Of a stretch of DNA of 64,000 bases, positions 30,506-50,700 are shown piece after piece (position 1 is the stretch's first letter; each line of letters begins with the position of its first letter). Below the pieces are notes generated by a model that was not told the origin of the DNA, ran no database searches, and saw nothing but the letters and a program-made list of their open reading frames with translations. Location: assembly GCA_016840405.1 (NCBI GenBank), contig JAEOSK010000001.1, positions 64,001 to 128,000 of the forward strand, given 5' to 3'. The position numbers were made by a program, and so were the translations under genes. This DNA is from Candidatus Hermodarchaeum yapensis. GTDB lineage: Archaea > Asgardarchaeota > Hermodarchaeia > Hermodarchaeales > Hermodarchaeaceae.

Positions 30506-31879
30506 AATGATGTTGGGAGAAAGCCCTTGACTTCAGTCGTGGAATGAACTCCTCCGCAACCCGTGATATACAACACTTCTCTCCACCCCCCAACGGTTTA
30601 AATCCCCTCACCATGAAATCCCCCTTCACATGACTGAACAGGTGAACCGGGCTCCGTCGCACCAACACAGTAACCCTCACACCCTCCGCCTCCCAACACC
30701 TACACCTCCTGCAGCTGGCCGAAGAGTGCGCCAGACTCTGGAACGAACTCACCTACTGACGCCGCCAAGCATTTTTCCGTGGAAAAATCACCTGGGAGTG
30801 GCAGGACCTCTACGACGCCTACAAAGGTGATGTGGGCTCGGCCACCGCCCAACAGATTGAACGCAAGAACAGTGAGGCCTGGCGTTCATTCTTCGCCCTC
30901 CTCTGATTAAAAACGAAGGGACGACTTCCATCCCATATCAACTGCGTAGGTCCACCGGGCTACTGGAAGTATCGTCGCACCAATACACGGAAGCTCATCA
31001 TTATCTTTCGCTGTGATTCCTATCGATTTGACGAGGGCATATTATATCTCCCCAAAAAATTGACTGTTAAATGGCAGGGGAAGCCCAAATGGGTGGGTTG
31101 GACCAAACAGGGTCAGCTAACCATCCACTATGATAATGTTACTGGCAAGTGGTATGCCCGTCAACCAGTGGAGGTTGAACCTCCCCATCAACCGCTCTCG
31201 CATCGGAGAGCCTTTGTTGGCCTGGGCGTGATTAATTTGCTGACCGTTGCCCTGGATGGTGCGTGGCAAACGTTGGTCTACAGTGGGCGTTCGGTCTTGG
31301 CGGATTGGTGGTATCTCTCTCATCGGATTGATCGGTTGAAGTCTCTAGCAAAGACGATAAACCATCGGAAATCAACGCATCGGATCCGTCGGTTATTTCG
31401 TCGTCGTCTGCGGTTACGCCAGTATGTGAATACGGTGGTTCGTCGGGCGGTAGCTGATTTGTGGGCGCACGGTGTGTCGCAGCTGGTGGTAGGGGATCTC
31501 ACTGGGATTCTGGCGGTAAAAAGTGGTGGGCGGAAGGCTCATGCGATGACACATAATTGCTGGAGTCATCGGTATCTTATGCAACGGATCACGGAGGTGG
31601 CAGAAGAATATGGTATTGTGGTGGAACGGGTGGATGAGCGGGGCACTTCAAGTAAGTGTCCACGCTGTCGGTCGAAGCGAGTAACACGACTAGGTCGCCT
31701 GTTCAAATGCCAGGAGTGTAGATTAGAAGCTCATCGAGATGGTGTGGGCGTAGTCAACATAGGGCTTGCTCAAGGCGCAGCGTTCCCTGGGGAAGTCGTT
31801 AACGGGGCAGTGGCATGCCCTTTGGAGGTCAGTGGATGACATCCAAGAATCTCCCGGCTTTAGCCGTGGAGAGTGTCAA
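30506..31879 (+). mobile_element. IS200/IS605-family element, tnpB only (IS1341-like), decayed
   Basis: Left-end hairpin after AAAG (AAAGCCCTTGACTTCAGTCGTGGA, 30520-30543); right end GAATCTCCCGGCTTTAGCCGTGGAGAGTGTCAA with the GAAT/TCAA pair as in IS608; left boundary approximate. Confidence 0.85.
30652..31839 (+). pseudogene. tnpB: tnpB pseudogene
   Basis: One frame from RRTNTVTL..ARLWNE to the CPRC/CQEC Zn finger and HRD..G..NI; in-frame TGA at 30757 and 30904; RuvC-I Asp replaced (AFVGLG). Confidence 0.88.
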
Positions 31880-32106: not shown

Positions 32107-32233
32107 ATTTTGAGCTGTAGCAAAAAATTCTATAAACCCCGTGATTCATCCCCAAGTACAGGTGGAGGGCTTCTCGCCGACAAGGTTAAATCAATTCTGC
32201 TTTTATTCCCTCCTTGTAATTGGTGACTTCACC

Positions 32234-46734: not shown

Positions 46735-47557
46735 ACGAAGGTATCCCACTCGATTTTGTCCCTACTGTGCAACCGAAATAACGACGCCTACTAAATATTG
46801 TGTAACCTGCGGTGTAGAAATTACATGGTCAATAAGAGAGGCGCAGGCCCCTCCATATCCCTGGTCACCCAGAACAACATATGTCATCACAATTATTACA
46901 TATGGATTATTTTTCGTCCTGACATTCGCGCTACTTTTTTACTATCTTATCTTCTTTGGTATCCCACTCTATCTACTTGACACTATCTTAATCACAGATC
47001 CCTTCTTTACAATCATACTCACTTTAGGCGAAGTTACCTTCTTCCTGATTCCCTTTGCCATTGTAAAGAGATTGAAAGTCAGACGAGAGAAACTTGGCCT
47101 CTTTTCTGGGGGCATCAGGAACCTATCAAAAGATATTATATTGGGACTAGGCGTGGGCGTAGTTTTGGCTCCGCTAATCTTGCTCCTTGATCTGTATGAA
47201 CTCCTTGCACCTGGAGCTGGTCCACCACCAACTCCCCCGACCCCCGTTGACCTGTTCTGGATGGGAATGCTGTGTCTTTCTGTGATTCTTATTATTGCAC
47301 CCGCTGAAGAAGTGCTCTTTCGCGGGTTTATCCAAAACTCCCTAGATGCTCATTATGGTCGAATTGGAGGGCTCCTTGTATCCTCCATTATTTTCGGACT
47401 GGCTCATCTCAACCCGTTTATTGGTGTCTTTCAAACAGTTGGAAGCATATTCCTCGGATTGCTATTCCAATGGCGAGGACGCCGTCTTGCCAGTCCAATT
47501 GTCGCTCATGCAACCTATGATTGCTTGATAATAATCTTGGATGCCTTCCTTATCTAA
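46724..47557 (+). CDS. zinc-ribbon + CPBP (CAAX/Abi) intramembrane metalloprotease
   Basis: CPYC..CVTCG; APAEEVLFRG, FGLAH, AHATYD motifs. Confidence 0.9.
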   Translation: MVAERRYPTRFCPYCATEITTPTKYCVTCGVEITWSIREAQAPPYPWSPRTTYVITIITYGLFFVLTFALLFYYLIFFGIPLYLLDTILITDPFFTIILTLGEVTFFLIPFAIVKRLKVRREKLGLFSGGIRNLSKDIILGLGVGVVLAPLILLLDLYELLAPGAGPPPTPPTPVDLFWMGMLCLSVILIIAPAEEVLFRGFIQNSLDAHYGRIGGLLVSSIIFGLAHLNPFIGVFQTVGSIFLGLLFQWRGRRLASPIVAHATYDCLIIILDAFLI

Positions 47558-47772
47558 ACCTCGAAAAGCTCCCGTTCGTCAGGCTGGGGACCACTCGCGG
47601 TGTTTAAATAAGTTTCTTGGCATCTAGATGTGAGGTCCTAGTCTGCGGTCCGAGAACCAAGGACATCTGACCGGGCAACATCGCCGGAACGGCGAGTAGA
47701 GCCTGTGGACCAGTCGGCAGGAGCCGATGGCATGAAGCAGGAAGCTCACACAATCAGATGTGGGCAGTTCAC
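47550..47772 (+). mobile_element. ORF-less IS200/IS605-derived mini-element (left-end-like hairpin + TATA + omegaRNA-like right end)
   Basis: Left-end-like GAAAAGCTCCCGTTCGTCAGGCTGGGGA; TTTAAATA 47603-47610; GCCTGTGGA...ATGAAGCAGGAAG-hairpin-AGTTCAC terminus typical of tnpB right ends; left boundary approximate. Confidence 0.7.
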
Positions 47773-47790
47773 CTAACGAAGACTCGTGCC
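47635..47790 (+). ncRNA. putative stand-alone TnpB omegaRNA/reRNA (scaffold 47635-47772 plus flanking guide)
   Basis: Stems GTCCT/AGGAC, TCGCCG-GAA-CGGCGA, TCGGC-AGGA-GCCGA, GCTCACA/TGTGGGC; TATA about 25 nt upstream. Confidence 0.6.
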
Positions 47791-50700
47791 TTAAAAAAGG
47801 GTGAGAAATGGGTTTCCACATAGACTGTAACTTAACCAGCTATGGAGAGGGGGACCTGTACTGGCTAGTTTTCGTCGTGTGTGGAGCATGGCAACAGCAA
47901 TGGGATCCCCTCCATATAGCTGTCTAATCAGGTTTTGAGTAAAGGTGGGTTGTAACTTATGTTCTGGACGCCATCGTGTGAATACAATCGAGGGAGATCC
48001 AGCAGTGACGAGATGTCGTAGAAAACCAGCTAAACTCATTCCATTCTCCATGGGATCTATCCGCATCGAATCATCAAGCACAAGAATAGGTGCACCTTTG
48101 AATAGAGTTGTGACCCCGATTTCAATCACTCGAAGACTATCCGGGTGTTGTAGTGGGATTTCGCCTTTACGATGGTGAAGGGTTGTGGGAGTTGAGAAAA
48201 AAAGAAGTGATCGGGGCTGCTCAAGGTTACTGGATAGCAAAGTCCGAGTAAAATCACTTCCAAAAAGAACAATTGGCTCAGTGATACCTTGGCGCGTGGG
48301 AACCGAGTCAAGAAATGACTTGGCAATTGCTTCAGCCACTGCTCTACGCGAAGCCTGCTCTTCTGCACCTGAATAGACACCTAGTACAACTGAAGGCATT
48401 GTAGTCTGGGCTAATGCTTTAGTCTTTAACGTGCTTTCGAAAAATTGGAAATCCGGAGCCCATGCCATAGGATACTTGAGACCCCAGTATTCTTTTCCAT
48501 CAAATACGAGTTCGAAGGGTACATTATTGAGAAATCCATCTGTGATGAATTGAAGAAATCCATAATTGTGGCTTTGGAGTTCCCGTTCAAGCCGACTCGG
48601 AATCAAACCGCGATATAGAAAGGATGCGATGTCTCTTAGATCCGCGATAGGAGGTAGTTCTTGAGTATTTTTGATTCCTTGGAGTGATTGTACAACTGAG
48701 GCTAAATCCGGTGAGATGGGTAAAGTATGGATACCGTGTCGACCGACATGGTCTAATGTAGTGACAATAATTCGTTGTTTTTCAAGTAGCACGTCATAGT
48801 TAATTAGAATCCACCGGCGGTCGGTAGGCATGAGGGTCATGAGTTTTTGTGGCATCTTATAATCTGAAGGCAACATCCCTCTTCCTGGGTCTGGACACGC
48901 TGCAGCGATTACGTTACGGTTGACATTCATTTTCTCCAATGATTCGACTAATTCAGTTCTAAGTGCCTTCCGACGGGATTTGTACTCTTCTTGGAGGAGA
49001 CTTTTTGGAGGTAAATGTGCGAGTTGCTGTCGCAGACCGCTTATTTGTGTGAGAAGATTAGTTTCTTCTTGTAGTAATTTTGGTAAATCCACACAACGTT
49101 CATACCCGAGATTATCGGATAGATAAGGATGCAATTTAGCGATTTTACGAGGGCTAGACCAATCAATCACCTTGTCTACAATCATTCGATCATTCTGTTT
49201 ATGATAGTAATGTGTAGCAATCAGGATTGCTTCTTCTAAGGCATGTTGCATTTGGTTCCACGCAAGAGGAAGATTTTCAATGTTGAAGTCAGTGGGAATA
49301 TCAAGTTCTTCACCAATTGAAATTGCCTGCTCAATTAGCTTCAGGATGTCTGATATTCCAGCAGAATCAACCAGTAAATTCGCCTGTCGCAAAAGGGTTT
49401 GAAAATACTCTTCACGGTATTCGGCTTCGCTGAAAATGCTTGCTGCCTTTTCATAATATTCCAAGGCTTTTGCTGAATCTTCTGCTTCAACTAAAGGCGC
49501 TAATTCAAAGTATAATCGACCCTGAAATTTTTCCTCAGTGGATGGTTTAAGTGTCAAAAGAGAACCTTTGAGCGCATCTTTACGTAGGCTGGGTTTTTCG
49601 AGATTACGATAAGCCTCAGCCAATTGATAATATGCTTCACTTGTGTCAAAGCTGGGCTCAGCTTTAAACTCTTTAATCGCTTGACTTAGATACTGCGCAG
49701 CTTCCGTATACTCGGCATTTCGCATCAAAACCAATCCAAGATTAATCGCAGCCTCTGCACGAAGCTCCATTGGGAGTTGTTCATCATGAATGGCTTGTTC
49801 CAATATGCCTTTGACCTGCTCTGGTGCCTGAGCCTCTAAAGTTAGTTGTGTAAGACTGACCATCAGAGATGTGGCTAATAGAGTTCTTCCCTGAGCATTC
49901 GCTTCTTTTGCAGCTTTTTGTAAAAGCGGAAGGTCCTCTTCAAGTCGTTGGGTCCTTCGGGAAGCATTAAGCAATAAACGGTATCCCCGAATTTCCATCT
50001 TTTCTTCAGGATGATCTTTTAGCAACAAAAGAGCCATTTTGCTTTGTTCTATCGCTTCTGGATATCGTTCAAGTTGATAGAAGGTTTCACCTACTTCGAT
50101 GTATATTTCTGCTTCTTCTTTCTGGCGTTTATGTTCTTGATAATAGCGAATAGCTTGTGTAAATTCCTGTTCCGATTGCTTATCTTTTCCAAGGCGTAGA
50201 AGTGCTTTTCCTTTCGAAATGCGCGCGTGAATATTTCTAGCTTGTTCGCCTAATTGTGAGAATATCTCAATGGCTTTGTCAAATAGACGGAGTGCTCTCA
50301 CATCCTGAACCAAGCGCTCTAAGATTTGAGCCACTATCAGTGCACTTTCTGCAAAGGCTATAGACGCTTTTTGGTTTTGGAAAAATTGGAGCGCTGCCTC
50401 GCCATGGGGGAGTGCCTGTTCTGGTTGATCTTTTTCCAATAAAAGACGTGCTGTGTGAAATTCGCATAAGGAGAGGCCTGTTTCATCATTGGCCTTTGAA
50501 AACACAGTTCGAGCTTGTTCGATGTGTTCTTCTGCCTTGTCCAGGTTTCCCTCAGCTTGGTAAATGCGTGCTACTCCAAGAAGTGCATGAGCCCTTGGTG
50601 TCGGTTTTCCTGCTGTTCCCCATAATTCGATTAGTTGTCTTAGGACCCTTTCTGCGTCATCGTACGCAGCAAGCTTGTGAAGGATACTAGCATATTCTGT

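What the first reader, a model, noticed from the sequence alone, without database searches (positions are those of the whole stretch)
47550..47792. ORF-less IS200/IS605 mini-element reduced to ends, promoter and an intact omegaRNA scaffold
Seen: the ~230-bp gap between convergent genes holds a left-end-like hairpin resembling that at 30520, a TTTAAATA box, four well-paired stems and the terminus GCCTGTGGA..ATGAAGCAGGAAG-hairpin-AGTTCAC, with no tnpB coding remnant. GAAG at the hairpin foot with terminal TCAC parallels the IS608 GAAT/TCAA rule. Established: tnpB right ends encode the omegaRNA scaffold and the 3' flank supplies the guide. Inference: a self-transcribed guide-RNA cassette (guide about CTAACGAAGACTCGTGCC) that borrows TnpB/TnpA in trans, either as a minimal parasite or as a domesticated guide. 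Its right end differs from the 30.5-kb element, so the partner protein is probably encoded elsewhere.
Basis: partly seen in the sequence, partly recalled or inferred. Interest (0 to 1): 0.72.

Follow-up and report, generated by a model that had tools for sequence, protein, structure and literature searches.

The report
Gene-less mini-transposon carrying TnpB guide RNA
This 219-base insertion in an Asgard archaeon is a protein-less miniature of an IS200/IS605 jumping element that keeps a promoter and the guide-RNA scaffold of the RNA-guided nuclease TnpB; it is a well-supported new example of an already described kind of selfish element.

Summary
Window 47554-47772 (219 bp) is a discrete insertion. 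A sister species (91% identical flanks) has the same site empty, reading CTTAT|CTAACGG. So the element sits 3' of a TTTAT-type target without duplication and ends in TTCAC.

It is one of 15 gene-less copies in this genome. Its left ~80 bp and right ~99 bp match the ends of eight ~1.3-kb tnpB-only elements elsewhere in the genome. The right 99 nt match the 3' ends of most related tnpB genes fetched from other genomes, chiefly archaeal. The fold is strongly supported: 95.5% of cells paired, 21 of 27 pairs compensatory.

The host is archaeal, so TTTAAATA is a TATA box. It predicts a ~143-nt scaffold followed by a guide that matches the empty site. At least one ISDra2-like TnpB with intact catalytic motifs is encoded elsewhere.

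Not supported: a stable left-end hairpin, sequence similarity to the 30.5-kb element, and any domesticated target. No cognate TnpA was found, and transcription is not shown.

Papers already describe PATEs that encode omegaRNAs and standalone omegaRNAs acting in trans. This scan already reported sister copies on other contigs. It is a new member of a known kind.

The parts
47549..47553 (+). Target / transposon-adjacent motif (TAM) CTTAT, a one-base variant of the family consensus TTTAT
   Evidence: The empty site in G002 reads CTTAT|CTAACGG. 12 of 20 aligned copies have TTTAT and 7 have a one-base variant. This is the same TAM as ISGst2 TnpB2 (PMC10055086).
47554..47772 (+). The whole non-autonomous IS200/IS605 mini-element (219 bp). 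The left border has a 4-nt ambiguity because CTAA occurs at both the element start and the flank.
   Evidence: It is missing precisely in G002:C11 and present at the same site in G005:C26 at 89% identity. It is one of 15 copies found by an nhmmer profile.
47554..47629 (+). Left end, homologous to the left ends of ~1.3-kb tnpB elements up to the position of the tnpB start codon
   Evidence: Profile positions 4-87 hit upstream of the family's tnpB genes: five at E 1.5e-7 to 0.058, and two more (C40:48032-48104, and an LE-like site on C14) at E 0.04-0.34. Alignment. A hairpin is not supported.
47603..47610 (+). TTTAAATA, a predicted archaeal TATA box
   Evidence: It is conserved in 13 of the 15 mini copies (degenerate in C34, lost in C54) and appears as TTCAAATA (TTCGAATA in C67) in the 7 full-length left ends, ~22-24 nt upstream of the tnpB ATG. 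The host is archaeal. Its function is inferred.
47630..47772 (+). Predicted omegaRNA scaffold (~143 nt). The 5' end is placed where the full-length elements have the tnpB ATG.
   Evidence: Conservation starts at GAGGTCC. RNA fold -54.3 kcal/mol, z -2.28. The 5' end is inferred, not mapped.
47637..47675 (+). 5' helix specific to the mini-element family (47637-47643 pairs with 47669-47675), enclosing a small hairpin
   Evidence: RNAalifold on the 15 copies: 3 of its 7 pairs carry compensatory changes, and U-G / C-G alternation is seen on this strand.
47674..47772 (+). Conserved 99-nt omegaRNA / right-end module. Helix 1: 47681-47686 with 47690-47695. Helix 2: 47702-47706 with 47737-47741. Helix 3: 47710-47718 with 47723-47730. 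Helix 4: 47744-47750 with 47759-47765.
   Evidence: Covariance model R1 scores 103.2 bits, E 3.7e-25, over the full model. The module is homologous to the 3' tails of tnpB genes.
47768..47772 (+). Transposon-encoded motif (TEM) TTCAC, the right border
   Evidence: All 23 family members in this genome end in TTCAC, as do 46 of the 47 aligned sequences; the Hermodarchaeota copy reads CTCAC. Similarity stops here, and the empty site confirms the border. Same TEM as ISGst2.
47773..47788 (+). Predicted guide CTAACGAAGACTCGTG. The 16-nt length is assumed from ISDra2-type TnpB.
   Evidence: It lies directly 3' of the right end. In the sister species the homologous sequence follows the TAM at the empty site. 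There is no second site in the genome.

Best explanation
Window 47554-47772 is a non-autonomous, protein-less derivative (PATE / standalone-omegaRNA type) of an ISDra2-like, tnpB-only IS200/IS605 element in an Asgard archaeon.

Shown:
- It is an insertion 3' of a TTTAT-type target (here CTTAT), without target duplication, and it ends in TTCAC.
- It consists of the left end of the parent element up to the tnpB start, a family-specific ~45-nt stem region, and the last 99 nt of the parent. In full-length elements that stretch doubles as the tnpB tail and the conserved omegaRNA scaffold.

Inferred:
- The left-end TATA box (47603-47610), which drives a leaderless tnpB mRNA in the parent, drives here an RNA that starts near 47630, runs through the ~143-nt scaffold and continues into the flank.
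- TnpB made by an intact full-length relative elsewhere in the genome (for example the 401-aa protein on contig C59) binds this RNA in trans.
- The 3' flank (CTAACGAAGACTCGTG) then guides TnpB to the TAM-flanked empty version of this same site. That would cut chromosomes that have lost or never had the element and favour its retention by recombinational repair.
- Movement to new sites would need a Y1 TnpA supplied in trans. None was found.
For: - Empty against filled orthologous sites define both borders.
- There are 15 gene-less copies, and the left and right ends are homologous to those of eight ~1.3-kb tnpB elements.
- The right-end module is found at the 3' end of 65 of 80 related tnpB loci from other genomes, chiefly archaeal.
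- Structure: 95.5% paired, 21 of 27 pairs compensatory, 0 of 500 shuffles reach this. Frequent G-U pairs on the tnpB-sense strand would be A-C mismatches on the other strand.
- Covariance model: 103 bits for this copy, and exactly 23 hits (15+8) in the genome.
- Partner TnpB: E 1.9e-67 to ISDra2 TnpB structures, with the three RuvC motifs and zinc-finger cysteines present.
- The TAM/TEM pair is identical to that of ISGst2.
- The host is archaeal and carries ESCRT-II, so the box is a TATA box. The aligned tnpB ATG lies ~27-30 nt after it.
- Published precedent: PMC10055086 and PMC10691335.
Against: - Transcription, the RNA 5' end and use by TnpB are not shown. The only RNA-library signal is one 151-nt contig of a G005-like orthologue, at the same low depth as the neighbouring gene. 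It may be DNA carry-over or read-through.
- The ~45 nt 5' of the conserved module do not align with the full-length elements. The scaffold also differs from theirs by many compensated changes, so compatibility with the resident TnpBs is assumed.
- The TAM here is CTTAT, not TTTAT.
- No Y1 transposase was found in this genome (86% complete). Only one was found among 15 genomes of the genus, and it belongs to another element family.
- The left-end hairpin that TnpA would need is not supported.
- Five or six of the eight full-length tnpB copies are broken.
Confidence: 0.8

Rival explanations
1. It is an inert relic. The element is a real mini-IS but is now neither mobile nor used. The conserved fold would only reflect selection that acted on the element lineage before this copy inserted.
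For: - No cognate TnpA was found.
- The left-end hairpin is not maintained.
- Most full-length tnpB copies are pseudogenes.
- Copies are only 74-85% alike, so they are old.
- The G005 orthologue carries changes at positions that are invariant or nearly invariant among this genome's 15 copies, in the GAAGCAGGAA motif.
Against: - This copy keeps every invariant base and all 27 pairs of the module, and scores as high as tnpB-linked copies.
- At least one TnpB with intact motifs is present.
- The site is polymorphic between species that are ~90% identical, so the family moved fairly recently.
Confidence: 0.15
2. It is a domesticated guide. The host keeps the cassette to aim TnpB, or an inactive relative, at another locus or at a virus, for defence or gene control.
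For: - It carries its own promoter and has no nuclease gene nearby.
- One exact 16-nt match to the guide exists in an IMG/VR contig.
Against: - That viral match has AAAAG, not a TTTAT-type TAM, upstream. It does not extend beyond 16 nt, and it lies in unrelated coding sequence.
- None of the 23 guides has a second site in the genome beyond 13-16-nt chance matches.
- Every guide is simply the flank of its own insertion.
- The site is empty in most of the genus.
- The resident TnpBs keep their nuclease motifs.
Confidence: 0.04
3. It is a host structured non-coding RNA or an intergenic terminator/regulatory element, unrelated to transposons.
For: - It is intergenic, between convergent genes, and well folded.
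- There is no Rfam match.
Against: - There are 15 dispersed copies in unrelated contexts.
- Its ends are homologous to those of tnpB elements.
- It is precisely absent from the orthologous site in relatives.
Confidence: 0.01

Closest known systems
PATEs (palindrome-associated transposable elements) of IS200/IS605 that encode omegaRNAs, as noted for Geobacillus stearothermophilus (Meers et al. 2023, PMC10055086)
   Same: - It is gene-less.
- Its left and right ends are shared with tnpB-bearing elements of the same genome.
- It carries an omegaRNA that must be used in trans.
- It has the identical TAM/TEM pair TTTAT/TTCAC, as in ISGst2.
   Different: - The host is archaeal (Asgard), with a TATA-box promoter taken from the parent's leaderless tnpB.
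- No cognate TnpA was detected.
- The left-end hairpin is not demonstrable.
- The 5' part of the scaffold is not alignable with the parents.
Standalone omegaRNAs of OMEGA systems (described in PMC10691335, which credits Altae-Tran et al. 2021)
   Same: They are mobilised omegaRNA loci that lack both effector and transposase, lie in genomes that also hold effector-containing loci, and are reported to work in trans.
   Different: That demonstration was made in other systems. Nothing has been tested for this family.
ISDra2 TnpB / omegaRNA (reRNA) of Deinococcus radiodurans (PDB 8exa, 8h1j)
   Same: The partner protein is a clear homologue (E 1.9e-67 over residues 3-370). The guide RNA derives from the tnpB 3' end plus the right end, with the guide in the flank.
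   Different: ISDra2 is a full element with tnpA and tnpB. I did not compare the RNAs directly, because no ISDra2 sequence was at hand.
IS1341-type (tnpB-only) elements
   Same: The eight ~1.3-kb parents in this genome have this architecture.
   Different: The finding itself lacks tnpB.

Membership tests
Non-autonomous IS200/IS605 element (PATE) | Both ends homologous to those of protein-coding IS200/IS605 elements | tested here: met
   Right end: profile hits at the 3' ends of 8 tnpB genes (E 7e-17 to 2e-11). Left end: hits upstream of 5 of them at E 1.5e-7 to 0.058, with weaker ones (E 0.04-0.34) at two more sites. Alignments.
Non-autonomous IS200/IS605 element (PATE) | No protein-coding gene inside | tested here: met
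   Only chance ORFs of 49-65 aa occur, on the opposite strand. The only protein similarity is to the 26-aa tnpB tail.
Non-autonomous IS200/IS605 element (PATE) | Insertion 3' of a short conserved target, without target-site duplication | tested here: met
   Empty site CTTAT|CTAACGG against filled site CTTAT|CTAAACC...TTCAC|CTAACGA. The TAM is conserved across copies.
Non-autonomous IS200/IS605 element (PATE) | Subterminal hairpins at both ends (TnpA substrates) | tested here: inconclusive
   The right-end hairpin (helix 4) is 91.5% paired with 5 compensatory pairs. The left-end hairpin is no better than shuffles and is unstable in this copy.
Non-autonomous IS200/IS605 element (PATE) | A Y1 (HUH) TnpA available in trans | tested here: not met
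   PF01797 is absent from this genome, which is 86% complete. It is present in 1 of 15 genus genomes, on an element whose ends do not match this family. Absence from incomplete MAGs is not proof.
Non-autonomous IS200/IS605 element (PATE) | IS608-type pairing of the 4 nt at the hairpin foot with the cleavage motif (GAAG with TCAC) | tested here: inconclusive
   GAAG/TCAC fits the IS608 pattern as I recall it. But TTCAC and GGAA are effectively invariant, so no covariation can be seen. The fourth base is A in 11 of 47 sequences and behaves as the first pair of helix 4 (G-U, A-U, G-C).
TnpB omegaRNA (OMEGA guide RNA) | Scaffold homologous to the 3' end of tnpB plus the right end | tested here: met
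   Model R1 scores 103 bits.
TnpB omegaRNA (OMEGA guide RNA) | Conserved secondary structure supported by covariation | tested here: met
   95.5% paired, 21 of 27 pairs with double changes, slid controls 33-57%.
TnpB omegaRNA (OMEGA guide RNA) | Guide is the DNA just outside the right end and matches the TAM-flanked unoccupied site | tested here: met
   In G002 the TAM is followed directly by the homologue of the guide. This is shown at sequence level only.
TnpB omegaRNA (OMEGA guide RNA) | A compatible TnpB with catalytic residues in the same genome | tested here: met
   P0001 (C59, 401 aa) and P0002 (C67) have open frames and the RuvC I/II/III motifs. Compatibility with this diverged scaffold is inferred.
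TnpB omegaRNA (OMEGA guide RNA) | The RNA is made and bound by TnpB and directs DNA cleavage | not testable with these tools
   There is only a low-depth contig in one metatranscriptome library. No raw reads or strand information were available.

The most novel reading that the evidence does not exclude
In this Asgard genus the guide-RNA-only elements outnumber their tnpB parents. They keep their RNA fold under selection while the TnpA-related features (the transposase gene and the left-end hairpin) have decayed. On this reading they persist mainly through TnpB-driven homing, or serve the host as a dispersed set of guides, rather than as ordinary transposase-dependent parasites.
Probability: 0.1. 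Interest if true: 0.6.

Novelty: new member of a known kind. Interest (0 to 1): 0.3.

Why it matters
It gives a cleanly bounded natural example of a guide-RNA-only offshoot of a TnpB transposon in Asgard archaea. The empty site, TAM, TEM, predicted promoter and covariation-backed fold are all defined. That is useful for annotating these genomes, where such repeats are otherwise unlabelled intergenic DNA. It also provides a compact archaeal omegaRNA / TnpB pair for testing. It does not change the current picture of how OMEGA systems work.

Tried and rejected
- Rfam gave no family at the gathering threshold and only noise at E up to 10.
- The sigma-70 promoter and intrinsic-terminator scan found nothing relevant, and it does not apply to an archaeon.
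- Folding the whole 241-nt gap was not significant on either strand, z about -1. The signal appears only when the RNA is delimited and in comparative analysis.
- The left-end hairpin had no consensus structure and no covariation.
- Likeness to the sequence at 30520 was not above shuffles.
- Guide off-targets in the genome: none beyond chance.
- Guide against IMG/VR: one 16-nt hit without a TAM, taken as chance.
- Cognate TnpA: the only Y1 gene in the genus sits on an element with unrelated ends.
- RNA evidence: the run holds only contigs at a depth of 2-5, equal to the neighbouring gene. The shared start of two contigs near 47673 is best explained by assembly breaks at the repeat core, not by an RNA 5' end.
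- The X5/X6 contig that skips the element differs at ~8% of positions. It is therefore a relative's empty allele, not excision in this strain.
Full report
**What is there**

The finding lies between two convergent ORFs. One is an Rce1/CPBP-like protease gene ending at 47557. The other is a TPR-CHAT gene on the minus strand whose stop is at 47791-47793. Rfam has nothing for it.

**It is a repeat with sharp ends**

- BLAST and an nhmmer profile find 15 full-length copies of ~220-240 bp in the window's own 2.7-Mb assembly. They are 74-85% alike and lie in unrelated contexts. All stop abruptly at (T/C)AGTTCAC and begin after a TTTAT-like motif.
- The same profile splits cleanly on eight tnpB genes of the genome. 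Its last ~100 positions match their 3' ends. Its first ~85 positions match sequences ~1.3 kb upstream, just before several of the tnpB starts.
- The mini-element is therefore an internal-deletion derivative of a ~1.3-kb tnpB-only IS200/IS605 element. It is not a relative of the different tnpB element at 30.5-31.8 kb in the window, whose left end shares only GTTTAAAT with it.

**Borders proven by an empty site**

- Among 14 other genomes of the genus, G005 has the element at the orthologous site (89% identity).
- G002, whose flanks are 91% identical, joins the two flanks directly: CTTAT|CTAACGGAGG. The window reads CTTAT|CTAAACC...GTTCAC|CTAACGAAGA.
- More distant members have a 30-40-nt spacer and no element.
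- The element is therefore 47554-47772 (219 bp). The left border has a 4-nt CTAA ambiguity. It inserted 3' of CTTAT without duplication.
- Across 20 aligned copies the upstream 5-mer is TTTAT in 12 and a one-base variant in 7.
- TTTAT as TAM and TTCAC as TEM is exactly the pair reported for ISGst2 and its TnpB2 (PMC10055086).
- A contig in two metagenomes also skips the element, but it differs at ~8% of positions and so belongs to a relative.

**The RNA module**

I aligned the last 99 nt of the 15 mini copies, the 8 resident tnpB elements and 24 tnpB loci from other archaea (Hermodarchaeota and Methanosarcinales).

- RNAalifold gives four helices.
- In the pair count, 95.5% of 1255 cells pair, against 33-57% when partners are slid.
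- 21 of 27 pairs show changes on both sides, and no shuffle of 500 reaches any measure.
- Helix 1 is entirely rewritten between the mini copies (TCGCCG/CGGCGA) and the resident tnpB copies (CCGAGG/CCTCGG). The single-stranded motifs (GGAAC, AGAGCCTGTGGA, GAAGCAGGAA, AGTTCAC) stay.
- Many pairs are G-U on this strand (for example U-G in 40 of 47 at one pair), which would be mismatches on the other strand. The fold therefore belongs to the tnpB-sense strand.
- A covariance model built from this alignment finds exactly 23 sites in the genome (15+8). The window copy scores 103 bits. The model also hits 10 of the 14 other genus genomes.
- In full-length elements the tnpB frame runs through the whole module and stops at the TAG of TAGTTCAC. 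The mini copy still reads a recognisable tail in that frame.
- Upstream of the module the mini family has its own helix (47637-47643 with 47669-47675), with compensatory changes among copies. It does not align with the parents.

**Host and promoter**

The genome encodes ribosomal protein L21e and an ESCRT-II (Vps25-type) domain. The nearest TnpB outside the genus (66%) is in a Hermodarchaeota MAG. The DNA occurs in marine-sediment, estuary and marsh metagenomes. I therefore read the host as an Asgard archaeon.

TTTAAATA is then a TATA box. It is kept in 13 of 15 mini copies and appears as TTCAAATA in 6 of the 7 aligned parental left ends (TTCGAATA in C67), where the tnpB ATG follows ~22-24 nt later. 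That spacing is typical of a leaderless archaeal mRNA. In the mini-element the aligned position is G47630, exactly where strong conservation (GAGGTCC) begins. The predicted RNA is therefore 47630-47772 plus the guide. On its own it folds at -54.3 kcal/mol, z -2.28. This is inference; nothing maps the 5' end.

**Partner proteins**

- The C59 copy encodes a 401-aa TnpB with HTH, OrfB_IS605 and zinc-ribbon domains. It matches ISDra2 TnpB structures at E 1.9e-67 and keeps the GVDVG, VESLN and DRDINAA motifs.
- C67 is also open.
- C40a has a frameshift only in the tail.
- The other five carry stops or a deletion.

**What is not supported**

- The left-end hairpin has no consensus fold, pairs no better than shuffles, and is unstable in this copy.
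- No Y1 transposase is found in this 86%-complete genome. The single one in the genus sits on an element with unrelated ends.
- The guides of all 23 elements match only their own flanks.
- The one exact 16-nt match in a viral contig lacks the TAM and any extension.
- RNA evidence is a single low-depth contig from one metatranscriptome library, covering 47673-47817 of a G005-like orthologue. It proves nothing.

**Comparison with what is known**

- Altae-Tran et al. 2023 recount that mobilised standalone omegaRNAs without effector or transposase occur beside effector loci and work in trans.
- Earlier notes of this scan describe sister copies of this same family on other contigs of this genome, with the same verdict. 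I reached the reading independently before opening them, then checked the paper they pointed to.

**Verdict**

This is a new member of a known kind. It has modest interest as a well-bounded archaeal example.

Noticed in passing
window 30515-31839: A different tnpB element: an ORF at 31060-31839 of 259 aa, with the OrfB_IS605 and zinc-ribbon domains. Its left end carries its own GGTTTAAATCC box near 30596. It is not a sequence relative of the mini family.
   Followed up: partly
window 32118-32191 (minus strand): A weak left-end-like match to the mini-family profile (E 7e-4), just downstream of the tnpB element above and in the opposite orientation. It may be a further degraded element.
   Followed up: no
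G000:C14:139087-144629 (11-17 kb beyond the window's right edge): Three tnpB elements lie head to tail. The first two belong to the parent family of the mini-element, and both carry in-frame stops.
   Followed up: partly
window 47766-47768 and the same position in all family members: In the tnpB-bearing copies, the tnpB stop codon is the TAG inside the conserved TAGTTCAC right-end motif. Five of the 15 gene-less copies, including this one, read CAG there.
   Followed up: partly
window 47554-47557 / 47555-47557: The stop codon TAA of the upstream protease gene lies in the CTAA that is shared by the element's first bases and the original flank. The insertion therefore left the reading frame and stop unchanged.
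   Followed up: yes
window 47678-47731 in metagenome runs X2, X5, X6: Summed contig depth over the conserved scaffold core is 230-720, against 13-60 on the flanks. With many loose ends leading into other copies, this shows the family is highly repeated in these sediment communities.
   Followed up: no
L039 (G013:C208:400-2012): This is the only Y1 transposase found in the genus. It sits back to back with a 379-aa ORF on a 2.3-kb contig. Its ends do not match the mini family.
   Followed up: partly
L120:9216-9231 (IMGVR_UViG_3300035388_000088): An exact 16-nt match to the guide lies inside a coding region of a viral contig. It is preceded by AAAAG rather than a TAM, and I judged it a chance match.
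   Followed up: yes
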